Origin: a virus
Length of the DNA stretch: 64,000 bases
Strand: one strand, 5' to 3'
IMG/VR virus record: IMGVR_UViG_3300023179_000039
Span: 32,001-96,000 of that record
The position numbers and the translations under genes were made by a program. Below are positions 5,924 to 26,055 of this stretch, piece after piece (the first letter of the stretch is position 1; every line of letters starts with the position of its first letter). The notes under the pieces were generated by a model, which saw only the letters and a program-made list of their open reading frames with translations, was not told where the DNA came from and did not search any database.

Positions 5924-7042
5924 ATGAGTAAAGACCTTAGTAAGATATTTGCATCGTTAGACAAGCTAAACAGTGAAGCCTCGTTTTTAAACGAAAACGC
6001 TTTAAGTAAAGTAGATGAATGGTTTGATACTGGCTGCTATGCTCTCAATGCCATATTGGGTGGCAGCTGTCGTGGTGGCGGTGTCCCTAAGGGAAGAATT
6101 ACCGGCTTCTCTGGCCCTAGTCAGACAGGCAAGACTTTTATTGTTAACAAGATTCTTGCAACGGCGCAAAAGAAAGGCATCACGCCAGTTATTTTTGATA
6201 CAGAGATCGCTATCGACGAGAATAGTACAAAAGGTGTAGGTCTTGACCCCGAAAATGTAAAATATGTACCGGTAGATACAATTGATCAGTGCCGTAATCA
6301 GATCAGTGCATTACTTGATAGTATTATCGAAAACAATGCTAAAGGTAAGTTTATTATTAGTATTGACAGTTTAGGTAATCTTGCTTCACAGAAAGAGCTG
6401 GATGACGTAGCTAAGGATAAATCTGCTGCAGATATGGGTCTTCGTGCAAAGTCTTTAAAGAGTATGTTTCGTACTTTAACTTTTAAAGCTGCTAAGGCTG
6501 GTGTTACAATTCTGTTTACTAATCATACTTACGATGACCCGGCTGCAATGTTCCCTAGTCTTGTAAAGAATCAAGCCGGTGGCTCAGGACCTGTATATAT
6601 GGCTAGTATTCTTGTACAGCTTGCCAAGCGTCATGAGAAGGAAGGCGAAGGCGATTCAATGGATACAGAAGATAAAAAGCTTGCTGAAGCAAACAAATAC
6701 AGCGGTACAACACTTCGTGCATTAACTGTAAAGAATCGCTTTCTACCACCGTTTTTAGAGACAGAAATGTATCTTTCCTTTAAGACTGGATTGAACAAGT
6801 ATAGCGGTTTGCTTGGTATGGCTGCAGTGAGAGGTATCGTTGAACAAAATGGTGCAACCTATACTGTAGGTGTTACCAGTGGTAAGTATAAGAAGGGCGA
6901 TAAACTAGGATATGCAAAGACATTTGCAAAAGATCCCGCTTTCTACGAGGAATTCATTATCCCTGAACTCGACAAGCGCTTGGCTGAAGAATACAAGTAT
7001 AACGTAAATGAAGCGCAAGGCGAAGAAGAACCTCACGAGTAA
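5924..7042 (+). CDS. uvsX: RecA-like recombinase UvsX
   Basis: DTGCYALN, Walker A GPSQTGKT, FDTE, IDSLGNLAS, DMGLRAK, TNHTY. Confidence 0.93.
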   Translation: MSKDLSKIFASLDKLNSEASFLNENALSKVDEWFDTGCYALNAILGGSCRGGGVPKGRITGFSGPSQTGKTFIVNKILATAQKKGITPVIFDTEIAIDENSTKGVGLDPENVKYVPVDTIDQCRNQISALLDSIIENNAKGKFIISIDSLGNLASQKELDDVAKDKSAADMGLRAKSLKSMFRTLTFKAAKAGVTILFTNHTYDDPAAMFPSLVKNQAGGSGPVYMASILVQLAKRHEKEGEGDSMDTEDKKLAEANKYSGTTLRALTVKNRFLPPFLETEMYLSFKTGLNKYSGLLGMAAVRGIVEQNGATYTVGVTSGKYKKGDKLGYAKTFAKDPAFYEEFIIPELDKRLAEEYKYNVNEAQGEEEPHE

Positions 7043-7748
7043 AGCTGTAGTCCCCATTTCCGGAGGAATGGACAGTACTGTCCTACTACATTTAGCTGCT
7101 AGTAGGTATGATAAGATAATCACGGTTAACTATGATTACGGGCAGAAGCACCGTGATAAAGAAATAAATTGCGCTTCATTTCAGATTGAATCGGTTGATA
7201 TGCCGGTTGACAGTTTACACATAAAATTACCGTTTTTTAAGGATATATGTCAGGTTTCTTCACTTCTTAATAACAAGGTTGCAGTTGCTAAAGCCAAGGA
7301 TGTAATGGGCGATCCGCAGACGGTTAACTATGTTCCCTACCGTAACTTGATGTTACTTAGCATTTCACTAGCTATCGCTGAAAACTACGGTGCTAGCACG
7401 GTTTTTCATGGTGCAGCACAAGCCGATAGTGTTGCAGGATTCTGGGATGGAAGCGAGGAGTTTCTTGATCAAATTAATAAAGTATCAGCTCTTAACAGAA
7501 GAAACAAAATTGTTGTACAGGCGCCATTAATTGACAAATCTAAAGAAGAAATCATAAAATTAGGTGTAAAGCTTGGTGTAAATTTTAGCCAGACATGGAC
7601 TTGTTATGAGGGAGAAGAACAGGCCTGCGGTGAATGTACTGCGTGCTCTTTAAGAATAAAAGGCTTTATAGATGCAGGTTATGTAGACCCGTTAAACTAT
7701 AAAATCTCAATACCTTGGGAAAAATATAAGTGTAAAGAAATAATTTAA
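7008..7748 (+). CDS. queC: 7-cyano-7-deazaguanine synthase QueC-family protein
   Basis: PP-loop ISGGMDS, DYGQKH, VPYRN and zinc site TCY...CGECTAC. Start uncertain: ATG 7008 or near 7035. Confidence 0.9.
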   Translation: MKRKAKKNLTSKAVVPISGGMDSTVLLHLAASRYDKIITVNYDYGQKHRDKEINCASFQIESVDMPVDSLHIKLPFFKDICQVSSLLNNKVAVAKAKDVMGDPQTVNYVPYRNLMLLSISLAIAENYGASTVFHGAAQADSVAGFWDGSEEFLDQINKVSALNRRNKIVVQAPLIDKSKEEIIKLGVKLGVNFSQTWTCYEGEEQACGECTACSLRIKGFIDAGYVDPLNYKISIPWEKYKCKEII

Positions 7749-8284
7749 CCTATCCGGTAAAATACAGCTCCGCTGTTTCTTTCATCAGCATCCCAAAAAG
7801 GATAAGAAGTAGGAGCTGTTATATCCATGTAATCACCTGCAGCGAGATCAAAAATGTAAAAACCAGTAACTTGCCAGTAGGGTTGAGATGATCCACCTGC
7901 GTAAGGTTTCAACGGAAAATCTACTCCATTTTTTCTATAAAAAAATTGAGCATAAATATTATTAGCTTTTGAAATCATAAAAACACCAAAATAATATCTT
8001 CCAGCTACTGGAGCAGTAAACCTACCATTGGTGTTATTATACAAATTATTATCATTAATATCTGCAATATCCCAAATCACTACGTAATCAGTATTATTAC
8101 CTACATATTTTGAAATACGTCTTACAGAAGCCATAGGCATGTAAGGCTTGTTAATAATACTTGAATAAGCCACAGGTAAAGAAGAAATTTGCGCTGCATT
8201 TGTAGAGTTGTTTTGACTGTAAGGCAACAAAGCACTACCAGCAGGCGTTCCTTGAGTTAACTGAGAAATCGTAACATCAGCCAT
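7745..8284 (-). CDS. C1q-domain virion fibre/decoration protein
   Basis: YNNTNGRFTAPVAGRYYF is a C1q/TNF-like signature; N-terminal MADVTISQL resembles phage fibre attachment segments. Confidence 0.7.
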   Translation of the reverse strand: MADVTISQLTQGTPAGSALLPYSQNNSTNAAQISSLPVAYSSIINKPYMPMASVRRISKYVGNNTDYVVIWDIADINDNNLYNNTNGRFTAPVAGRYYFGVFMISKANNIYAQFFYRKNGVDFPLKPYAGGSSQPYWQVTGFYIFDLAAGDYMDITAPTSYPFWDADERNSGAVFYRIG

Positions 8285-9222: not shown

Positions 9223-9242
9223 AATTAGGAGGTATATAATAT

Positions 9243-9926
9243 ATTTGCGGTATATTTGGTTCTAAAGACTTTACAACATATGTAAAGCTTTATAAGAGTA
9301 ATAAGAAAAGAGGCACCTTTTCTTACGGGGGTCTATTAATTGGACATAAGATACATGCCTTGTTAAAAACTCCAGGAACTGCAGAATTACATAAAAAGCT
9401 AGTTATCGAATACGGGAGAAAGAAGAGAAGTATTACTGATTTTGAAACGTTTTTAGGTCATACACAAGCACCTACATCAAGCCAGAGACGATTTACACCT
9501 GCCACTTCTCACCCTTTTCAATATAAAAACTGGATCATTGCACATAATGGCGTTTTAACAAATGATAGAGAGCTTAAGAAACTTATAAAAGATAAAAAAT
9601 CTTTTAATGTAGTTGACTCATCTGTTATTGCACCTTTAATAGATTTTAAATTTAGGGATATAGGGGATGAGGTAGCAGGTATATGTAGCGCGCTTTCTAT
9701 GCTTAAAGGTACCTTCGGGTTATGGATTTATGAGCAAAAGAGCGGAAACATATACCTTGCAAGATCCGGTAGTACGATTTATGCAAATTTTATCACTAAT
9801 GACTTCTCATCTCTTAAAGAAGAAGGCTTTGTTTCATTAGATGAAGGAGTTCTCTATCTCTTAACAAAAGAAGGCATTACATCTGTAGGCGTCTTTAAGA
9901 CAAACTCACCTTTTTTCTCACCATGA
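9243..9926 (+). CDS. Class II (Ntn) glutamine amidotransferase, apparent ATT start
   Basis: Frame extends upstream of track start 9360 to ATT-TGC-GGT-ATA-TTT-GGT (xCGIFG, catalytic Cys), bounded by in-frame TAA at 9237. Also RG, GHT, HPF and AHNG motifs. Confidence 0.85.
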   Translation: MCGIFGSKDFTTYVKLYKSNKKRGTFSYGGLLIGHKIHALLKTPGTAELHKKLVIEYGRKKRSITDFETFLGHTQAPTSSQRRFTPATSHPFQYKNWIIAHNGVLTNDRELKKLIKDKKSFNVVDSSVIAPLIDFKFRDIGDEVAGICSALSMLKGTFGLWIYEQKSGNIYLARSGSTIYANFITNDFSSLKEEGFVSLDEGVLYLLTKEGITSVGVFKTNSPFFSP

Positions 9927-10599: not shown

Positions 10600-10627
10600 T
10601 TGATTATTTGTTTTTATAATTTATTAT
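10600..10627 (+). promoter_or_regulatory. Sigma70-type promoter, leaderless geometry (gp41)
   Basis: TTGATT-N16-TATTAT-N6-ATG 10634. Confidence 0.7.
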
Positions 10628-10633
10628 AATGTA

Positions 10634-11962
10634 ATGGGCAAGTTAGATCTAGACTTTTTTGAAACAGTTATTGCTTTTAAGTCTTTAACTGATGAAACCT
10701 ACCTCGCATCCATAGTAGATCATATAAAACCTGTTTTTTTCAAAAATAAAGATATTAAATCGATTTTTACTATTATTCGCGATTTCTATGAAAGTAGAAA
10801 CGCGTGCCCCACTCTTACTGAAATTAAGTCTTATCTTACTACAGAAGAATTAAAAACGTCATTTAAAAATACCGTAAATCTGTTTAATAATCTTGATAAA
10901 AATTTTAATAACGACGAGCTTTCATTTAATACTGAAAAATTTATTAAAGAAAAGTCTGTATACCATACAATGATGGATGTAATTGAAGATATCGACAAGA
11001 ATAGCGTTGATACCTCTAAAATTTTAGCGAAGTTTGAAAAGGCTTGTAATATTTCTCTCACCACCGAGATTGGTTTAGATCTCTACACAGATATTGATAA
11101 AGTTATTACAGACTTACATTCGAATGAAAAATATTTGCCTTCAAAATGGAAATGGTTAGATGAAAAAATAGGAGGTGGGTTTTTAGAGGAAGGTAGAGCA
11201 TTATATTTGTTTGCCGGTGAAACTAATATTGGTAAGAGTATATTTCTAGGCAATGTTGCAATTAATGTGGCTGATCAAGGCAAGACCGTCCTGCTTGTTT
11301 CTTTGGAAATGCCTGAAATAATTTATGCAAAAAGGCTTGTTTCAAGCGTATCTAAGATACCGCTTAGTCAATTAAAGGTTGAATCTGATACTTTAAAAAA
11401 TCAAATAAGCGAATATTGTATAGAGAATCCTAATGCTAAAATTTTAATTAAAGAGTTTCCCCCTGCTACAATCACACCCAATCATTTAAAGGCATTTATT
11501 AAAAAGCTTTTTCAAAAAGGTATAAAAATCGATGCAATTGTATTAGATTATGTAAATCTATTACATTCAACTATGGGTGATTCGAGTTATGAAAGGGTAA
11601 AGATATGTACAGAACAACTCAGAGCTCTAAGCTATCAGTTTAATTGCCCTGTTATAACAGCTACTCAATTAAATCGTGAAGGATATGAGATAACCGATCC
11701 CGGTCTTAAGACAATTTCTGAAAGTATAGGATTAGCAATGACAGGCGATGTCATTATGAGTATTTGGCAAGAAGATACAGATAAAGAGTTAGGTGTTATA
11801 AAAATGGGGTTAATGAAGAACAGATTTGGGCCAAATTTCGGCCATTGCGCTATGAGAATAGACTATTCTACATTGACTATAACAGAGGACGAACATATAA
11901 ACGACACGGAGGCAAGTACATCATCTATTAATACGTTGACAAAATTAGCTATAGATAATTGA
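10634..11962 (+). CDS. gp41: DnaB-like replicative helicase
   Basis: Walker A GETNIGKS, SLEM, IKEFP, LDYVNL, TATQLNR, MKNRFG. Confidence 0.95.
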   Translation: MGKLDLDFFETVIAFKSLTDETYLASIVDHIKPVFFKNKDIKSIFTIIRDFYESRNACPTLTEIKSYLTTEELKTSFKNTVNLFNNLDKNFNNDELSFNTEKFIKEKSVYHTMMDVIEDIDKNSVDTSKILAKFEKACNISLTTEIGLDLYTDIDKVITDLHSNEKYLPSKWKWLDEKIGGGFLEEGRALYLFAGETNIGKSIFLGNVAINVADQGKTVLLVSLEMPEIIYAKRLVSSVSKIPLSQLKVESDTLKNQISEYCIENPNAKILIKEFPPATITPNHLKAFIKKLFQKGIKIDAIVLDYVNLLHSTMGDSSYERVKICTEQLRALSYQFNCPVITATQLNREGYEITDPGLKTISESIGLAMTGDVIMSIWQEDTDKELGVIKMGLMKNRFGPNFGHCAMRIDYSTLTITEDEHINDTEASTSSINTLTKLAIDN

Positions 11963-11987
11963 TTTATTAGTTTTGAGTAATAATTAG

Positions 11988-12284
11988 TTGTTGACTGTGA
12001 AAGGTTACGATCCTTCTGAACTGATAACTGATTATGAACAAACACATTTGTTTTTATCGTTTTGTTCGTTTGTAACATTAACAAATACTAAAAAACTTAA
12101 TCTAGCTAATGTTTTTATATGTTTACTTAAACATAAAGAGTTTAGAGACGTCTTTAAAGTATATTGTGATTTAAAAAATGATTTTAACGCCGTTAAATTT
12201 TTCTTGCAATTTGATTCAAGTTTGTATAAAAGTAAATACATTATGAAATTTTTAAACAGTAACAAAAAGTTTTTATTAGTATGA
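11988..12284 (+). CDS. Hypothetical protein
   Basis: Fills the gap, ATGA-coupled to the next gene; start uncertain. Confidence 0.6.
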   Translation: MLTVKGYDPSELITDYEQTHLFLSFCSFVTLTNTKKLNLANVFICLLKHKEFRDVFKVYCDLKNDFNAVKFFLQFDSSLYKSKYIMKFLNSNKKFLLV

Positions 12285-12493
12285 GTAAAGTAATTAACGT
12301 TTCCGTTTCTTTAGACAAAAAGAAATGCACAGATAAAGCTTATTTTGATAAAGCTTATAAAAAATTTGCAAGAGAAGTTTTAAGAGCAGGTATTTCTGAA
12401 GATCTACGTTTTAAGCGTTATTATCTTAAGCCGAGTGCGCTTAGAAAGCTTAAAAAGCAGTTCAGCAGACAAAAGTGGAAATTTTATAATTGA
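12281..12493 (+). CDS. rpsU: Ribosomal protein bS21 homologue
   Basis: 70-aa basic protein. FDKAYKKFAREVLRAGISEDLRFKRYYLKPSALRKLKK fits the bS21 pattern (A.++F.+...+.G...+.R.+.YY.KPS..R+.K). Confidence 0.75.
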   Translation: MSKVINVSVSLDKKKCTDKAYFDKAYKKFAREVLRAGISEDLRFKRYYLKPSALRKLKKQFSRQKWKFYN

Positions 12494-13131
12494 TAACTGA
12501 ATTTGAAAAACACATTTACAATTCTTTCTTAAAAGTTACTCGCTCAAATAGTAATTTACCGTACAAGCTTCGCAAAAATTTTGAAAATGTAGACGAAAAA
12601 ACATATTTATCGTTAAAAAAGCTATCATTGTTTTTTAAGAAATACCCCCATATAAAAGTAGAAGACTTTTTCAAAGCACCTTATTTGCTATATAAGGATG
12701 AAAAATATTTTCCATTAGAATACTTTTATACACTTAAGGCAATAAAATCCTTTACTCTTAATAATCAAAGGCAAAATAATTTAGATCCAGATAGTGACGA
12801 GCAGTTAAATAATATTAAACAGTCATTAGTCTATATTTTAAATTTTTGTAACAAGCATAACATTGATGTAGAAAATTATATTTTTCACAAAACTAATAAT
12901 GAATATTCTTTTTTATTACACCTCAAAGAACATAATGTTAATATGTATACTCTTTTAGGCTATAATAATTTTGAAAAGGTGCTGCGCTCCTGTAATGCCG
13001 AAATAACAAAATTTATTATTGGTGAAGAGCTCTACAACAACGTACAGACATTTAGAACAAAACTCTTTAATTCAAAAAAAGCTGCAAAATTAGTTTCACT
13101 TGGCCTTAAAAAAATTATAGAAAAGTCTTGA
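12490..13131 (+). CDS. Hypothetical protein, possible gp59-like helicase loader
   Basis: 213-aa basic, aromatic-rich protein immediately before gp32, the position of gene 59 in T4. Function is positional inference only. Confidence 0.5.
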   Translation: MITEFEKHIYNSFLKVTRSNSNLPYKLRKNFENVDEKTYLSLKKLSLFFKKYPHIKVEDFFKAPYLLYKDEKYFPLEYFYTLKAIKSFTLNNQRQNNLDPDSDEQLNNIKQSLVYILNFCNKHNIDVENYIFHKTNNEYSFLLHLKEHNVNMYTLLGYNNFEKVLRSCNAEITKFIIGEELYNNVQTFRTKLFNSKKAAKLVSLGLKKIIEKS

Positions 13132-13161: not shown

Positions 13162-14022
13162 ATGAGTACATTTACCACATCGATGTTTGAAAGTATTAAA
13201 GGCGCGCTGACAAAGAGTAACGAATCAACTGCTTCGAAGATAAAAGATTATCTAAGATGTGAGGTTGGCAATACATATACAGTACGACTTCTCCCTAATG
13301 TTAAGGACCCATCAAAGACATTCTTCCATTATTATTCCTACGGATGGAACAGTTTTTCAACAGGAGAGCTAATTACTGCTGTTAGCCCTACAACCTGGAA
13401 TCAGCGTGACCCTATTGCAGAGGAACGCTATAGGATTCTTCGTACGGGCACTGAAAAGGAAAAGGAAAAGGCCCTGGCTATTAAGCGTCGCGAAAACTGG
13501 CTTGTTAGTGTTTATGTAGTTAATGATCCGGTTAATTCTGATAACAACGGTAAGGTCAAGCTGTTAAGGTTTGGTCGCCAGTTGCATAAGATTATTATGG
13601 GCGCTATTGAGGGTGAGGAAGCAGAAGAGCTCGGTCCTCGCATATTCGATCTTTCACCTAAAGGCTGCAACCTTAAGATTAAAGTAGAAAAGCAAGGTGA
13701 ATATCCTACTTATGTTTCATCTAAGTTTACTACACCCAAGGAAATTGAAGGCCTAGATGATGATTCTTTTAAGAAAGTATATAGCAGCGCCTTTGATCTC
13801 GAATCGTATGTTAGTGTAAAGAGTTATGATGAACTTAAGGACATCCTCGATTCACATTACCATGGCACTAAGGACGTTGAAGATGTAATTGAAGAGCCTG
13901 TAGCTAAAAAGACATCAGCTCCAACCCCTTCCGTTAATGTTACAGTCAAGCCTTCGAAAACAGAAGCAAAAGCTGTTACAGAAGACGACGAGAGCATTAG
14001 CGAACTTCTTAAGGACCTTTAA
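13162..14022 (+). CDS. gp32: Single-stranded DNA-binding protein
   Basis: VRLLP, VYVVNDP...NNGKVKLLRFG, IFDL..KGCNLKIK, Y.SSKF, acidic tail. Confidence 0.9.
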   Translation: MSTFTTSMFESIKGALTKSNESTASKIKDYLRCEVGNTYTVRLLPNVKDPSKTFFHYYSYGWNSFSTGELITAVSPTTWNQRDPIAEERYRILRTGTEKEKEKALAIKRRENWLVSVYVVNDPVNSDNNGKVKLLRFGRQLHKIIMGAIEGEEAEELGPRIFDLSPKGCNLKIKVEKQGEYPTYVSSKFTTPKEIEGLDDDSFKKVYSSAFDLESYVSVKSYDELKDILDSHYHGTKDVEDVIEEPVAKKTSAPTPSVNVTVKPSKTEAKAVTEDDESISELLKDL

Positions 14023-23272: not shown

Positions 23273-23278
23273 TATTTA
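23273..23278 (-). promoter_or_regulatory. Late-type promoter TAAATA
   Basis: 6 nt before ATG 23266; overlaps + strand TAAGTA (23269-23274) ahead of gp17. Confidence 0.6.
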
Positions 23279-26055
23279 TGTTATATATGCCTAAAAAACA
23301 AGAAAGTCAATTTTATTTAGGAAATCAAAATTTACCCACAACAGATGCTGTATTTGATTATGAAGCACATCCAGAATGGGTACAAGATATAGCCAGATGT
23401 AGAAAAAATATATTATATTTTGCTGAGAACTTCTTCTATATTACCAATCTAGATGAAGGTAAGATGAAAATTAAACTTCATACTTATCAAAAGCGTATTT
23501 TAAGAAGTTTACGAGATAATAGATTTGTATGTTTATTAGCAAGTCGTCAAATTGGTAAAGCACTTGCTTTAGACACCCCAATACCTACTCCAGCTGGATG
23601 GACTACTATGGGTGAATTAAAAGACGGGGACATTGTATTTGGTTTAGATGGTAAAAGATGCAAGGTTGCAAAAGCTCATGATATTTTATTAAATAGAAAT
23701 TGTTATGAAGTGTTGTTTGATAATGGTGAAAAAATAATTGCTGACGAAGATCATTTGTGGTTAACACAAACTAGAGCCGAAAGACATAAAGAGATACAAG
23801 GTAGTAAAAAGACAACTAAAGAAATTTTCAATACTTTATTAACTAAATCTAAAACAAGACAAGAACCAAATCATAGAATTCCGGTTTGTTTGAATGGTAT
23901 AGAAACGAGTAGAAATTTACTACCAATAGATCCTTATGTTCTAGGATTTTGGTTGGGCGATGGAGCTTCTGAAGGCGGTACAATAACTGTTGGTAAAAGA
24001 GATTTAGATAATGTTATCTCTATTCTTAAAAATAATCAAATGCAGTTTAACAATTTAATTGTACATAAATACAATAAAAATGCTTTTACAGTGCGCATTA
24101 CAACCAGCAAAAACGTAAAGACTGAAAGTTTAAGCACATTATTAAAGGAAAATAATTTAGTTTTTAACAAACATATACCGCAAGAGTATATGTTAAGTAG
24201 CAGAACACAAAGATTATCTTTACTGCAGGGGTTAATAGATAGTGACGGCTATATAACAAAACATGGTATAGCTCAATTTTATAATACAAATTTAAATTTA
24301 GTAAAGCAGGTAAGAGAACTTATTGAAAGTTTAGGATACAAAGTAACTTACAAAGAATTTATTCCAAAACTCAGAGGTGTTGAATGCAGTAAAGTAGGCA
24401 CATTGACTTTTACTCCTTATGAAGAGGTATGTCTTTTAGACTTTAAAAAATCTAGACTAAAGAAAATAACTAAAAAAGAAAACGTTTCTAAATTAAGAGC
24501 TCAATGGCATTACATTAAATCTATAACCCCTGTAAAATCTGTGCCCGTTAGATGTATAACTGTAGATAATGAAACAGGGACATTTTTATGTGGAAAACAG
24601 TTTATTCCAACAAGTAATACTACATTAATGACAATATATGCTTTGTGGATAGCCTGTTTTTTTGAAGACCAACGTACTCTCATTGTCGCTAATAAAGAGC
24701 AAACAGCAATTAATATTTTTAAGAGAGTTCGTTTAGCTTATGAAAAACTACCAAACTATCTTAAACCAGGAACCGTAGAATATGGGAAAACATCAATGTC
24801 TTTGGGAAACGGGTCTAGTATTGGTATTTCGACGACAAGTAGTGATGCAGGCCGAGGCGATAGCTGTAATGTTTTAATTTTGGATGAGTTAGCATTTATT
24901 GACAACCATCTTGTTGAGCAATTCTGGAGTTCAGTATACCCAATTATTTCATCGTCCAAAAAATCTAAAATATTTGTTGCATCAACGCCAAACGGAACCG
25001 GTAATCTTTTTCATGAATTATATTCTGGGGCAATAGAGGGTAAAAATGATTGGCATGCTGAAAAAGTTGATTGGTGGGAGTTTCCCGGGCGTGATGATGT
25101 CTGGAAAGAAAAAACAATTAAAACTTTAGGCAGTAGAGAAGTTTTTGATCAAGAATTTGGTAATGTATTTTTACAAGCCGGAGAAAGTGCCATCGATGAA
25201 AAACTTTTTGAAGAAATGAAAACTGAATGTATTGAACCTAATTTTATTTTTGAAGAAGGAAAATATTTGATGTGGGAAGAGCCCTCACAGGATAAAATTT
25301 ATGTCGTCGGAGTCGACATAAGCGAAGGCGTAGGAGAAGCTGCAAGTGTTGTTCAAGTTTTAGATATTACGGATTTGAGAGAAATAAAACAAGTAGCAGT
25401 TTATCATGACCGTACAATTAGCCCTTACAATTTTACAACTAAGTTACACGAAATCTTAAAGCACTGGGGATCACCTCTTGCCATGATAGAAAGAAATAAC
25501 TGCGGTGCACAGGTTGTCGATCAACTTAAAAATACTATGGGATATGAAAATATAGTTTCATATGGAATTAAATCTGGACCGGTTTCGTTTAATAAAATTG
25601 GCGTACAAGCCCATACCAACACAAAATATAAAGGTGTAATGAATATGCGGTATTGGATGTCAGAATTAAAAGTATTAAAAATTAGAGATTTAAAAACGTT
25701 AAACGAATTAAAAGGGTTTGTTCGCTATCCTAACGGCACATGGGCGGCTAAACAAGGTTCAGATAGCTGGGATGATAGAGTAATGAGTCTTATGTGGGGG
25801 CTAATGATTTTAGAAAACGGGTTAGTGGAAAAATATTTTGAAATTGTAGAGTTTGATAATAATAAAAAACCATTAAAATTAAAATCTTTAGATTATGGAA
25901 TTAAGTATTTTCTAAACCCTGCATCAATTTATAACAATGAAAAAAATGGCTTAGAAGGGTTACCACCTTTACCTATAGTAATACAACAACAAGATAATAA
26001 TGATTTTAATGAAATAGCTGATTTAGAATCACAAGGCTACCGCCGAATTCAATAA
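23278..26055 (+). CDS. gp17: Terminase large subunit, intein-containing
   Basis: LHTYQK, Walker A SRQIGK/T split by the intein, Walker B LILDELAF, STPNG, nuclease GVDISEG and DDRVMS. Start 23278 or 23287. Confidence 0.95.
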   Translation: MLYMPKKQESQFYLGNQNLPTTDAVFDYEAHPEWVQDIARCRKNILYFAENFFYITNLDEGKMKIKLHTYQKRILRSLRDNRFVCLLASRQIGKALALDTPIPTPAGWTTMGELKDGDIVFGLDGKRCKVAKAHDILLNRNCYEVLFDNGEKIIADEDHLWLTQTRAERHKEIQGSKKTTKEIFNTLLTKSKTRQEPNHRIPVCLNGIETSRNLLPIDPYVLGFWLGDGASEGGTITVGKRDLDNVISILKNNQMQFNNLIVHKYNKNAFTVRITTSKNVKTESLSTLLKENNLVFNKHIPQEYMLSSRTQRLSLLQGLIDSDGYITKHGIAQFYNTNLNLVKQVRELIESLGYKVTYKEFIPKLRGVECSKVGTLTFTPYEEVCLLDFKKSRLKKITKKENVSKLRAQWHYIKSITPVKSVPVRCITVDNETGTFLCGKQFIPTSNTTLMTIYALWIACFFEDQRTLIVANKEQTAINIFKRVRLAYEKLPNYLKPGTVEYGKTSMSLGNGSSIGISTTSSDAGRGDSCNVLILDELAFIDNHLVEQFWSSVYPIISSSKKSKIFVASTPNGTGNLFHELYSGAIEGKNDWHAEKVDWWEFPGRDDVWKEKTIKTLGSREVFDQEFGNVFLQAGESAIDEKLFEEMKTECIEPNFIFEEGKYLMWEEPSQDKIYVVGVDISEGVGEAASVVQVLDITDLREIKQVAVYHDRTISPYNFTTKLHEILKHWGSPLAMIERNNCGAQVVDQLKNTMGYENIVSYGIKSGPVSFNKIGVQAHTNTKYKGVMNMRYWMSELKVLKIRDLKTLNELKGFVRYPNGTWAAKQGSDSWDDRVMSLMWGLMILENGLVEKYFEIVEFDNNKKPLKLKSLDYGIKYFLNPASIYNNEKNGLEGLPPLPIVIQQQDNNDFNEIADLESQGYRRIQ
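23560..24618 (+). mobile_element. Class 3-type intein with LAGLIDADG homing endonuclease (353 aa)
   Basis: Begins ALALDTPIPT, block B DEDHLW, LGFWLGDG and LLQGLIDSDG, block F VRCITVD, ends FIPTSN before Thr+1. Confidence 0.92.

What the first reader, a model, noticed from the sequence alone, without database searches (positions are those of the whole stretch)
12281..12493. Phage bS21 within a nearly Shine-Dalgarno-free gene expression programme
Seen: a bS21-like ORF with an aromatic C-terminus (KWKFYN) in the replication operon. Nearly every gene in the window either starts at its predicted transcription start or is stop/start coupled (ATGA, TTGA, TAATG, TAA-N-ATG at 2701, 9923, 12281, 12490, 15894, 17430, 20265, 21946, 30562, 35803, 37404, 40765, 42837, 51278, 56904, 57542). 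SD-like sequences are rare (9227, 16226, before 8284). Known: bS21 sits beside the anti-SD, helps occlude it in Bacteroidota, and phage bS21 genes are reported. Inference: the phage protein may retune ribosomes away from SD-led host mRNA toward leaderless and reinitiated phage mRNA.
Basis: partly seen in the sequence, partly recalled or inferred. Interest (0 to 1): 0.85.

Follow-up and report, generated by a model that had tools for sequence, protein, structure and literature searches.

The report
Phage S21 gene, leaderless-type genome
An uncultured lake T4-like phage carries a real but unusual copy of ribosomal protein bS21 in a genome that uses almost no Shine-Dalgarno sites, but relatives lacking the gene are organised the same way, so the gene did not create that programme.

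Summary
The ORF at 12281-12493 is a genuine, divergent phage bS21. It scores 37.5 bits on PF01165 (cut-off 27), the three best structural matches of its AlphaFold model are bS21 chains, and dN is far below dS.

The window lies in a 110-kb T4-like myovirus contig from lake water. The SD-free claim holds:
- SD 4-mers precede 5% of 114 genes, against 6% at internal ATGs (T4 44%, Pelagibacter phage HTVC008M 43%).
- 38 genes have a T4-late-type TAAATA box 3-8 nt before the start; in 21 it is exactly 5 nt.
- 14 genes show TTGAYW-N16-TATAAT-N6-start geometry, and 38 are stop/start coupled.

Sixteen syntenic relatives without bS21 have the same architecture. On an outgroup-rooted helicase tree they form the basal grade, so the programme predates a single bS21 gain. 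Conversely, the bS21-carrying pelagimyophages are SD-rich.

Nothing links the phage to Bacteroidota: its promoters are canonical sigma70 type and the protein shows no Tyr54 signature.

One new point: the single perfect SD (AGGAGG, 9227) is conserved and serves an ATT-start amidotransferase gene.

The scan met this phage group before on other contigs, with the same outcome.

The parts
12281..12493 (+). Phage bS21 gene (70 aa). Its ATG overlaps the orfA stop (ATGA) and its TGA overlaps the orfB TTG start (TTGA).
   Evidence: PF01165 37.5 bits, above the cut-off of 27. phrog_21469. AF2 model pLDDT 83 with helices 19-36, 38-46 and 51-68. The top three VIA-align matches are bS21 chains, Z 6.2-4.7. 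Conserved in 34 relatives. dN 0.16-0.28 with dS at or above 1.3 or saturated.
11988..12284 (+). orfA, conserved gene of unknown function upstream of bS21; exact start uncertain (TTG 11988/11991 or GTG 11997).
   Evidence: No Pfam or PHROG hit. Present in both S21+ and S21- relatives.
11959..11964 (+). -35-like TTGATT overlapping the helicase stop codon. Likely sigma70-type promoter heading orfA-bS21-orfB, with a TAATTA-like -10 downstream.
   Evidence: Conserved position in relatives. In L055 it shows the full TTGATT-N16-TAATTA-N6-GTG geometry. Inference only, no transcript data.
12233..12245 (+). TAAATA-N4-ATG inside the 3' end of orfA, 39 nt before the bS21 start. A possible internal late promoter giving a 13-codon leaderless mini-ORF that ends in the ATGA overlap.
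   Evidence: TAAATA or TAAGTA in most S21+ loci. Basal S21- loci use AGC (CAAATA) at the same Ser codon. Cannot be separated from protein-coding constraint.
12490..13131 (+). orfB (213 aa), conserved gene directly before gp32. Its position and size resemble T4 gp59, but this was not shown.
   Evidence: Present in all relatives. In S21- relatives it follows orfA after 11-63 nt (248 nt in L086), which leaves no room for bS21.
10634..11962 (+). gp41/DnaB-like replicative helicase, used as the phylogenetic marker.
   Evidence: PF03796 and phrog_19. Trees.
10600..10633 (+). Example of early/middle promoter geometry: TTGATT-N16-TATTAT-N6, then the ATG of the helicase gene.
   Evidence: One search lists 11 such genes and their position matrix.
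13162..14022 (+). gp32-like single-strand DNA-binding protein with the same TTGATT...-N6-ATG geometry.
   Evidence: PF08804 and phrog_224..
9227..9232 (+). The only intergenic perfect SD (AGGAGG) in the window, 10 nt before an ATT start codon.
   Evidence: AGGAGG-N8-10-ATT-TGY-GGN is conserved in about 28 crown-clade relatives while the flanks vary.
9243..9926 (+). Class-II glutamine amidotransferase gene. The true start is ATT 9243, giving (M)CGIFG, not TTG 9360.
   Evidence: In-frame TAA at 9237. Relatives have ATG at the same codon, followed by TGY GGN ATH TTY GG. PF13522 hit.

Best explanation
The ORF encodes a divergent, phage-specific bS21.

Shown:
- It is a bS21 homologue under purifying selection.
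- It is translationally coupled (ATGA/TTGA) inside the helicase-SSB replication operon.
- It was gained once inside a freshwater T4-like lineage.
- That lineage's whole expression programme is older than the gene and persists without it. The programme comprises late TAAATA boxes and sigma70-type promoters placed so that transcripts should begin at the start codon, stop/start coupling, and no SD.

Inferred:
- The protein is made from early/middle times onward, possibly boosted late from an internal TAAATA.
- It exchanges into host 30S subunits at the bS21 site beside the 16S 3' tail. bS21 is loosely bound, and the HTVC008M protein does this in E. coli.
- Its 5-residue N-terminal insertion and its short Trp-containing C-terminus change how the anti-SD and the mRNA exit region are presented.
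- The result is a quantitative advantage for phage messages.

It is therefore an accessory tuner of translation, not the cause of the SD-free programme.
For: Identity:
- PF01165 above cut-off.
- F29, P51 and S52 are invariant in an alignment with cellular bS21.
- The AF2 helix-loop-helix model has bS21 chains as its three best structural matches.
- dN is far below dS.

Clade-specific features:
- A KKKCT insertion and a KWK[FY]Y[NS] end replace the long basic tail.
- Only 7 representative clusters reach E<=1e-10 among 1.84 billion proteins. Cellular bS21 appears only at E>=1e-7.

Operon and coupling.

Programme independent of bS21:
- S21+ relatives: SD 5.6% (control 5.9%), 13% late-abutting, 15% early, 33% coupled.
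- S21- relatives: SD 6.8% (control 7.8%), 11.5%, 19.7% and 33.7%.
- Two S21- records of 109-120 kb have 26 genes each with TAAATA 4-7 nt before the start.

Single gain: S21- lineages form six successive basal branches. S21+ is one crown clade of 34, with one nested loss, L073.

Ribosome incorporation of a phage bS21 is shown for HTVC008M in E. coli (PMC6375957).
Against: - There is no direct evidence of expression, ribosome binding or any effect on mRNA choice for this protein.
- No RNA data exist for this phage.
- The host is unknown, so it cannot be said whether host mRNAs use SD.
- S21- records are only 30-59% complete, so a bS21 copy elsewhere in those genomes cannot be fully excluded. In all 34 carriers, however, the gene is at the one syntenic site.
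- In E. coli, ribosomes lacking uS2 and bS21 translate leaderless cI mRNA better (PMC10491246). That argues against a simple 'bS21 helps leaderless' model.
Confidence: 0.6

Rival explanations
1. One reading: the phage bS21 occludes or redirects the anti-SD. Host SD-led mRNAs are then shut out, and ribosomes are channelled to leaderless and reinitiated phage mRNAs.
For: - The genome is SD-free while a bS21 variant with an invariant Trp66 and an aromatic end is conserved.
- E. coli ribosomes carrying HTVC008M bS21 translated an SD-led GFP template at about 5% of control (PMC6375957).
- F. johnsoniae bS21 sequesters the anti-SD (PMC7797042).
- Among ten T4-like genomes (phage 11b, also, is not T4-like), late boxes abutting starts occur only in this clade and in the two bS21-carrying pelagimyophages, with 13 and 5 genes. 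The five other S21- phages have 0-1.
Against: - Basal relatives without bS21 have the same architecture.
- Pelagimyophages with bS21 keep 42-43% SD.
- Early genes must be translated by unmodified host ribosomes, yet they are leaderless and SD-free too. The host therefore already handles such mRNAs.
- The Tyr54-equivalent residue is a variable Gln.
- One phage gene keeps a perfect, conserved SD in bS21 carriers. That fits badly with blanket anti-SD occlusion.
Confidence: 0.2
2. Spare-part model: the phage supplies bS21 only to keep 30S subunits complete and active during infection. Host bS21 synthesis may stop, or host bS21 may be limiting or exchangeable. There is no change in mRNA selectivity.
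For: - bS21 is a late-assembling, exchangeable protein and by far the commonest ribosomal protein in aquatic phages (PMC6375957; PMC9976891).
- The gene is dispensable on evolutionary time scales, with one nested loss in L073.
- It is made from the replication operon, before the bulk of late protein synthesis.
Against: - The protein is far from any cellular bS21, with best cellular E-values of 1e-7 to 1e-5.
- It has clade-specific insertions and a remodelled C-terminus.
- A plain replacement part would be expected to resemble the host's copy, as HTVC008M's does at 54% identity (PMC6375957).
Confidence: 0.15
3. Extraribosomal role: the small basic RNA-binding protein acts in the replication module, for example on primers or mRNA, and has nothing to do with ribosomes.
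For: Its position is between helicase and SSB, coupled to two conserved unknown genes. bS21 has been reported in a non-ribosomal RNP (PMC12054373, title and abstract).
Against: The bS21 core residues that define the family are retained: the F29 and KPS motifs and the helix-loop-helix. No precedent was tested here.
Confidence: 0.05

Closest known systems
Virus-encoded bS21 of Pelagibacter myophage HTVC008M, and of Mosig (Mizuno et al. 2019, PMC6375957)
   Same: A bS21 gene in a T4-like aquatic myovirus. It is under purifying selection and is proposed to replace host bS21. Both phages also have some late TAAATA boxes 4-7 nt before start codons, in 13 and 5 genes.
   Different: Only 32% identity over 31 residues. 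The HTVC008M protein is host-like and scores 65.7 bits on PF01165, whereas this one scores 37.5 bits and has no identifiable donor. The genomic context differs. Those phages use SD before 42-43% of genes, against 5% here.
bS21-encoding freshwater myoviruses predicted to infect Bacteroidetes (Chen et al. 2022, PMC9723584)
   Same: Freshwater lake phages with a conserved bS21. The hypothesis is the same: substitution into host ribosomes to favour phage transcripts.
   Different: Their gene lies on the reverse strand in the structural module (TerL, MCP, protease), is expressed late, resembles Flavobacteriia bS21 and keeps an aromatic residue at Tyr54. This gene is in the replication operon, has no Bacteroidota affinity, and has Gln at the extrapolated Tyr54 position.
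Flavobacterium johnsoniae bS21: anti-SD sequestration and rpsU autoregulation (Jha 2021, PMC7797042; McNutt 2023, PMC9976891)
   Same: An SD-free gene set with a single exceptionally strong, conserved SD on one gene. Here that gene is the ATT-start amidotransferase and there it is rpsU. In both cases bS21 sits beside the 16S 3' tail.
   Different: The strong SD is not on the bS21 gene. The Tyr54 signature is absent. Phage promoters are TTGAYW/TATAAT, not TTTG/TAnnTTTG. The SD+ATT arrangement is not strictly co-distributed with bS21.
Leaderless mRNA systems: lambda cI (PMC10491246), mycobacteria (PMC4633059), Deinococcus deserti (PMC4007540), and the TA-signal criterion of Zheng et al. 2011 (PMC3160421)
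   Same: A -10-type box at a fixed 5-7 nt before ATG or GTG start codons, the usual in-silico mark of leaderless genes. GTG starts are common among them, as in mycobacteria.
   Different: Here the pattern spans a phage genome and involves two promoter classes, including the T4-type late box read by a phage sigma. In E. coli, loss of bS21 (not its gain) favours leaderless cI. No transcript 5' ends are available here.
T4 late promoters (TATAAATA) with SD-led late genes
   Same: The same late box, and T4-like replication and virion genes.
   Different: In T4, S-SSM4, BUCT-ZZ01, C48C1 and phiM12 the box lies 9-40 nt upstream and SD is enriched at 27-47%. Genes with the box 4-7 nt from the start number 0-1.

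Membership tests
Ribosomal protein bS21 (PF01165) | Profile HMM match above the curated cut-off | tested here: met
   37.5 bits against a cut-off of 27; residues 22-63 align to profile positions 10-51 of 55. The whole-contig search gave 36.8 bits.
Ribosomal protein bS21 (PF01165) | Two- or three-helix hairpin fold of bS21 | tested here: met
   AF2 model with pLDDT 83 and helices 19-36, 38-46 and 51-68. The VIA-align top three are bS21 chains 28jw_u (Z 6.2), 5mmm_u (5.0) and 6eri_BU (4.7), rmsd 2.7-3.1 over 58-61 residues. The Z values are modest, and Foldseek found nothing.
Ribosomal protein bS21 (PF01165) | Conserved core residues (Phe in helix 1, Y-x-K-P-S turn) | tested here: met
   F29, P51 and S52 are invariant across 29 phage and cellular sequences.
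Ribosomal protein bS21 (PF01165) | Binds the 30S platform next to the 16S 3' tail | not testable with these tools
   No RNA-protein modelling or biochemistry is available. Shown only for HTVC008M bS21 in E. coli (PMC6375957).
Bacteroidia-type anti-SD-occluding bS21 (Jha 2021) | Signature Tyr54 that stacks on A1534 | tested here: inconclusive
   The phmmer alignment to 7jil_z is ungapped with an offset of 10 over residues 18-60. Extrapolated, Tyr54 corresponds to residue 64, which is Q/L/F/K/N in the clade. An invariant Trp66 lies two residues further on. The alignment does not itself reach position 54.
Bacteroidia-type anti-SD-occluding bS21 (Jha 2021) | Closest sequence affinity to Bacteroidota bS21 | tested here: not met
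   7jil_z has E 0.15 and ranks about 34th, whereas L. lactis 5myj has E 4e-5. The best cellular hits of the profile are from WWE3, Gemmatimonadota and Parcubacteria.
Bacteroidia-type anti-SD-occluding bS21 (Jha 2021) | Very strong SD upstream of the bS21 gene (autoregulation) | tested here: not met
   The upstream sequence is A/T-rich with no SD, and the start overlaps the orfA stop.
Chen 2022 bS21 phage clades | bS21 on the reverse strand within the TerL-MCP-protease-portal block | tested here: not met
   Here the gene lies between the gp41-like helicase and the gp32-like SSB on the forward strand, in all 34 carriers.
Leaderless gene architecture (in-silico criterion, Zheng 2011) | A -10-type signal at a fixed short distance before the start codon, well above background | tested here: met
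   TAAATA at exactly 5 nt in 21 of 114 genes against 1 of 386 controls. TATAAT-like box at -12..-7 with TTGAYW at -34..-29 in 11 genes.
Leaderless gene architecture | Transcript 5' ends at the start codon | not testable with these tools
   No RNA run holds this sequence.

The most novel reading that the evidence does not exclude
In this lineage the bS21 variant, with its insertion in the N-terminal loop and a short Trp-bearing C-terminus, repositions the 16S 3' tail. Ribosomes are thereby switched between two initiation modes. One mode serves the leaderless and coupled phage messages. The other serves the single SD-dependent, AUU-start amidotransferase gene, whose perfectly conserved AGGAGG would then act as a built-in reporter of anti-SD availability. 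This would be a phage counterpart of the rpsU switch of Flavobacteriia. bS21 would have been recruited independently in two T4-like lineages (this clade and the pelagimyophages) because both use leaderless late mRNAs.
Probability: 0.1. Interest if true: 0.8.

Novelty: new variant of a known kind. Interest (0 to 1): 0.45.

Why it matters
What phage-encoded bS21 does is an open question, even though it is the commonest ribosomal protein gene in viruses. This lineage offers a natural comparison: sister phages with and without the gene share one unusual expression programme, with predicted leaderless early and late mRNAs, coupling and no SD. That shows the programme does not depend on bS21, and it narrows the question to what bS21 adds. 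The genome-wide placement of T4-type late boxes 5 nt before start codons was not found described in the paper library searched. The conserved AGGAGG plus ATT-start gene shows that the host's anti-SD is canonical and usable, and it gives a concrete reporter for testing any effect of phage bS21 on SD recognition.

Tried and rejected
- DNA and protein searches of the phage collection with the locus and with the bS21 protein found nothing. The DNA polymerase and TerL are only 30-35% identical to those of cultured T4-like phages, so there is no close cultured relative.
- No tRNA genes were found in the window or in six relatives.
- Sequencing runs: one lake-water DNA holder, probably the source sample, and no RNA holder listed. 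Transcript starts could therefore not be mapped, and read laying was not used.
- Foldseek against the PDB gave no match.
- Donor and host inference from bS21 failed because the clade is too isolated.
- Host inference from genome bins was rejected as mis-binning.
  - Related phage contigs sit in an 'archaeon' MAG and in an 'uncultured bacterium' MAG.
  - The latter's order lacks PF01165 in 0 of 10 genomes, has bS6 and has no WhiB.
  - However, its genomes are SD-rich (39-66%) at GC 40-52%, while the phage-like contig has GC 32.6% and no SD.
- Full dN/dS could not be computed because dS is saturated for most pairs. One sequence (L060) was misaligned and ignored.
- The careful IQ-TREE search did not finish. 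A quick IQ-TREE tree and an outgroup-rooted FastTree tree were used instead.
- No complex prediction was run, as no protein-protein binding claim is made.

Full report
**The object.** The window is bases 32001-96000 of a 109,659-bp viral contig, estimated about 51% complete. The only sequencing run that holds it is a lake-water metagenome. The gene content is that of a T4-like myovirus:
- gp43-type polymerase, UvsX, SbcC, terminase, sheath and tape measure;
- a gp41/DnaB-type helicase and a gp32-type SSB.

The polymerase and terminase are only 30-35% identical to those of cultured cyano-, pelagi- and coliphages.

The ORF at 12281-12493 encodes 70 residues ending in KWKFYN.

**Is it bS21?** Yes.
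- It scores 37.5 bits on PF01165 (cut-off 27) and matches phrog_21469.
- Against solved structures, 38 bS21 chains match. L. lactis bS21 is best (E 4e-5) and F. johnsoniae bS21 is near the bottom (E 0.15).
- An AlphaFold2 model built on 29 sequences has pLDDT 83 and three helices.
- Foldseek found nothing. An exhaustive VIA-align search put three bS21 chains on top, with Z 6.2, 5.0 and 4.7 and rmsd 2.7-3.1 over 58-61 residues.
- F29, P51 and S52 are invariant across phage and cellular sequences.
- Against close relatives dN is 0.16-0.28 while dS is at least 1.3 or saturated, so the gene is under purifying selection.

The protein belongs to an isolated clade. In a profile search of 1.84 billion representatives, only 7 clusters reach E<=1e-10. 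Cellular bS21 appears only from E 1e-7, from WWE3, Gemmatimonadota and Parcubacteria. Two features mark the clade: a five-residue insertion (KKKCT) before helix 1, and a short KWK[FY]Y[NS] end in place of the long basic tail. It is only 32% identical, over 31 residues, to the bS21 of Pelagibacter phage HTVC008M.

**The SD-free programme.** I called 114 genes on the contig with a simple ORF rule and applied the same script to comparators.

| Genome | Genes with AGGA/GGAG/GAGG at -18..-4 | Control (internal ATGs) |
|---|---|---|
| This contig | 5% | 6% |
| T4 | 44% | 5% |
| HTVC008M | 43% | 5% |
| Mosig | 42% | – |
| BUCT-ZZ01 | 47% | – |
| C48C1 | 40% | – |
| phiM12 | 34% | – |
| S-SSM4 | 27% | – |
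| Flavobacterium phage 11b | 3% | – |

TAAATA ends exactly 5 nt before the start in 21 genes, against 1 of 386 controls (p 1e-13), and 4-8 nt before it in 31 genes. With the T4 late box at -13..-6, that spacing puts +1 on the first base of the start codon.

Eleven genes have TTGAYW ending 28 nt before the start. The matrix at -12..-7 reads T91 A91 t64 a55 A91 T82, which is a canonical sigma70 promoter whose +1 is again the start codon. Five of these genes start with GTG.

With slightly relaxed rules the 114 genes split into 38 late, 14 early, 38 coupled, 1 SD-only and 23 unclassified. Several of the unclassified genes have a lone TATAAT-N6-ATG.

These are sequence-geometry predictions. No RNA data exist.

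**Does bS21 go with the programme?** Sixty-five related loci were fetched through the helicase. All share the order helicase-orfA-[bS21]-orfB-gp32.
- Thirty-four distinct loci carry bS21 at that site.
- Sixteen do not. In most of these, orfB follows orfA after 11-63 nt.
- Five of the bS21-less records, 64-127 kb long, have no PF01165 hit anywhere, although they are only 30-59% complete.

| Pooled statistic | S21+ loci | S21- loci |
|---|---|---|
| SD | 5.6% (control 5.9%) | 6.8% (control 7.8%) |
| Late-abutting | 13.4% | 11.5% |
| -35 at 27-29 nt | 15.1% | 19.7% |
| Coupled | 32.9% | 33.7% |

Two bS21-less records of 109-120 kb each have 26 genes with TAAATA 4-7 nt before the start, and 15-16 with the early geometry.

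On the helicase tree the carriers form one crown clade with a single nested non-carrier, L073. Rooted with four T4-like outgroups, the non-carriers form six successive basal branches. The programme therefore predates one gain of bS21 and works without it. Whatever the root, lineages without the gene keep the programme.

The converse also fails. HTVC008M and Mosig carry bS21 yet are SD-rich.

One weak point runs the other way. Among ten T4-like genomes, late boxes abutting start codons occur only in this clade and in the two bS21-carrying pelagimyophages (13 and 5 genes, at annotated starts). The five other bS21-less phages have 0-1. That amounts to two independent acquisitions in lineages with leaderless-looking late genes, which is too few to weigh.

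**Host and the Bacteroidota analogy.** The host is unresolved. Background-level SD resembles a Flavobacterium phage, but several points argue against a Bacteroidota-type system:
- The early promoters are TTGAYW/TATAAT.
- The Bacteroidota -7 motif TAnnTTTG is not enriched (4 upstream against 7 inside genes). In phage 11b the counts are 12 against 3.
- The protein has no special affinity to F. johnsoniae bS21.
- The Tyr54-equivalent position, extrapolated from an ungapped alignment, is a variable Gln; an invariant Trp lies two residues further on.
- There is no SD before the phage bS21 gene, unlike rpsU of Flavobacteriia.

Early genes are leaderless and SD-free and must be read by unmodified host ribosomes. 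The host therefore probably handles such messages natively, which undercuts the premise of SD-led host mRNA to be shut out.

Related phage contigs binned into two MAGs gave no usable host signal.

**A conserved exception.** The SD-like site at 9227 is real. The glutamine amidotransferase gene does not start at TTG 9360. It starts at ATT 9243, giving (M)CGIFG, with an in-frame TAA at 9237, and it is preceded by TAGGAGGT ten bases upstream.
- In about 28 crown-clade relatives, AGGAGG-N8-10-ATT-TGY-GGN is conserved while the flanks vary.
- In basal and mid-clade relatives the same codon is ATG behind TATAAT-N6, the leaderless type.
- One bS21-less phage (L094) also has GGAGG plus ATT.
- AGGAGG as such is at chance frequency in the window, and this is the only intergenic copy.

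So the host's anti-SD is canonical and usable, and the phage reserves it for one weak-start gene. This recalls the lone strong SD of rpsU in Flavobacteriia. Its distribution does not track bS21 strictly.

**Expression of the bS21 gene.**
- Its ATG overlaps the orfA stop, and its stop overlaps the orfB TTG.
- A TTGATT box overlaps the helicase stop and is conserved, which suggests an early/middle operon.
- Inside orfA, TAAATA-N4-ATG lies 39 nt upstream. It would give a 13-codon leaderless ORF ending in the ATGA overlap.
- Most carriers have TAAATA or TAAGTA there, whereas basal non-carriers use AGC (CAAATA) at the same Ser codon.
- This is suggestive only, because the motif lies in coding sequence.

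**Comparison with what is known.**
- Phage bS21 is well known, with about 1,300 contigs, mostly aquatic and lytic. Replacement of host bS21 has been proposed, and incorporation has been shown for HTVC008M in E. coli, where the loaded ribosomes translated at about 5% of control (PMC6375957).
- Chen et al. proposed selective translation of late phage transcripts in Bacteroidetes hosts (PMC9723584). McNutt et al. discuss the same idea.
- In E. coli, loss of uS2 and bS21 favours leaderless cI (PMC10491246).
- I found no paper in the searched library describing genome-wide leaderless geometry in a T4-like phage. That is not proof that none exists.
- Earlier notes of this scan report the same phage group on other contigs and reach the same verdict. 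My tests were run independently.

**Verdict.** The bS21 identity and the SD-free, promoter-abutting, coupled programme are real.

Noticed in passing
window 9226-9926: The glutamine amidotransferase gene starts at ATT 9243, not TTG 9360, behind a perfect AGGAGG. SD plus ATT is conserved in about 28 crown-clade relatives and in one bS21-less phage (L094), while other relatives have a leaderless-type TATAAT-N6-ATG at the same codon.
   Followed up: yes
L002, L005-L009 (HTVC008M); L148-L152 (Mosig): The cultured Pelagibacter phages HTVC008M and Mosig have 13 and 5 genes with TAAATA 4-7 nt before annotated start codons (tape measure, baseplate, head closure and others), although 42-43% of their genes have SD. 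This gives a culturable system in which to test leaderless late mRNAs.
   Followed up: partly
window 12233-12245: TAAATA-N4-ATG lies inside the 3' end of orfA, 39 nt before the bS21 start. The Ser codon is AGT (making TAAATA) in most bS21 carriers and AGC in basal non-carriers.
   Followed up: partly
window 23278-26055: The large terminase is 925 aa, about 300 aa longer than T4 gp17. It has extra PHROG hits to helicase-loader and primase families, and some matching phage records annotate the region as DnaB. An intein or an inserted domain is possible.
   Followed up: no
window 7008-7748 and 9243-9926: QueC (190 bits) and a class-II amidotransferase lie close together, suggesting a 7-deazaguanine DNA-modification module.
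   Followed up: no
window 7745-8284 (-): A C1q-domain protein (PF00386, 33.7 bits). This is the only gene in the window whose sole upstream signal is an SD-like AAGGA.
   Followed up: no
L068, L073, L078, L080 (about 11320-12260 in each): Some relatives carry an extra gene of about 900 nt between the helicase and orfA. It is absent from this window.
   Followed up: no
L119 (NYZO01000029.1), L120 (CAZIJP010000021.1): Phage contigs of this group are binned into public MAGs labelled 'archaeon' and 'uncultured bacterium'. GC (32.5%) and absence of SD differ from the rest of the bacterial bin, so these look like binning errors.
   Followed up: partly
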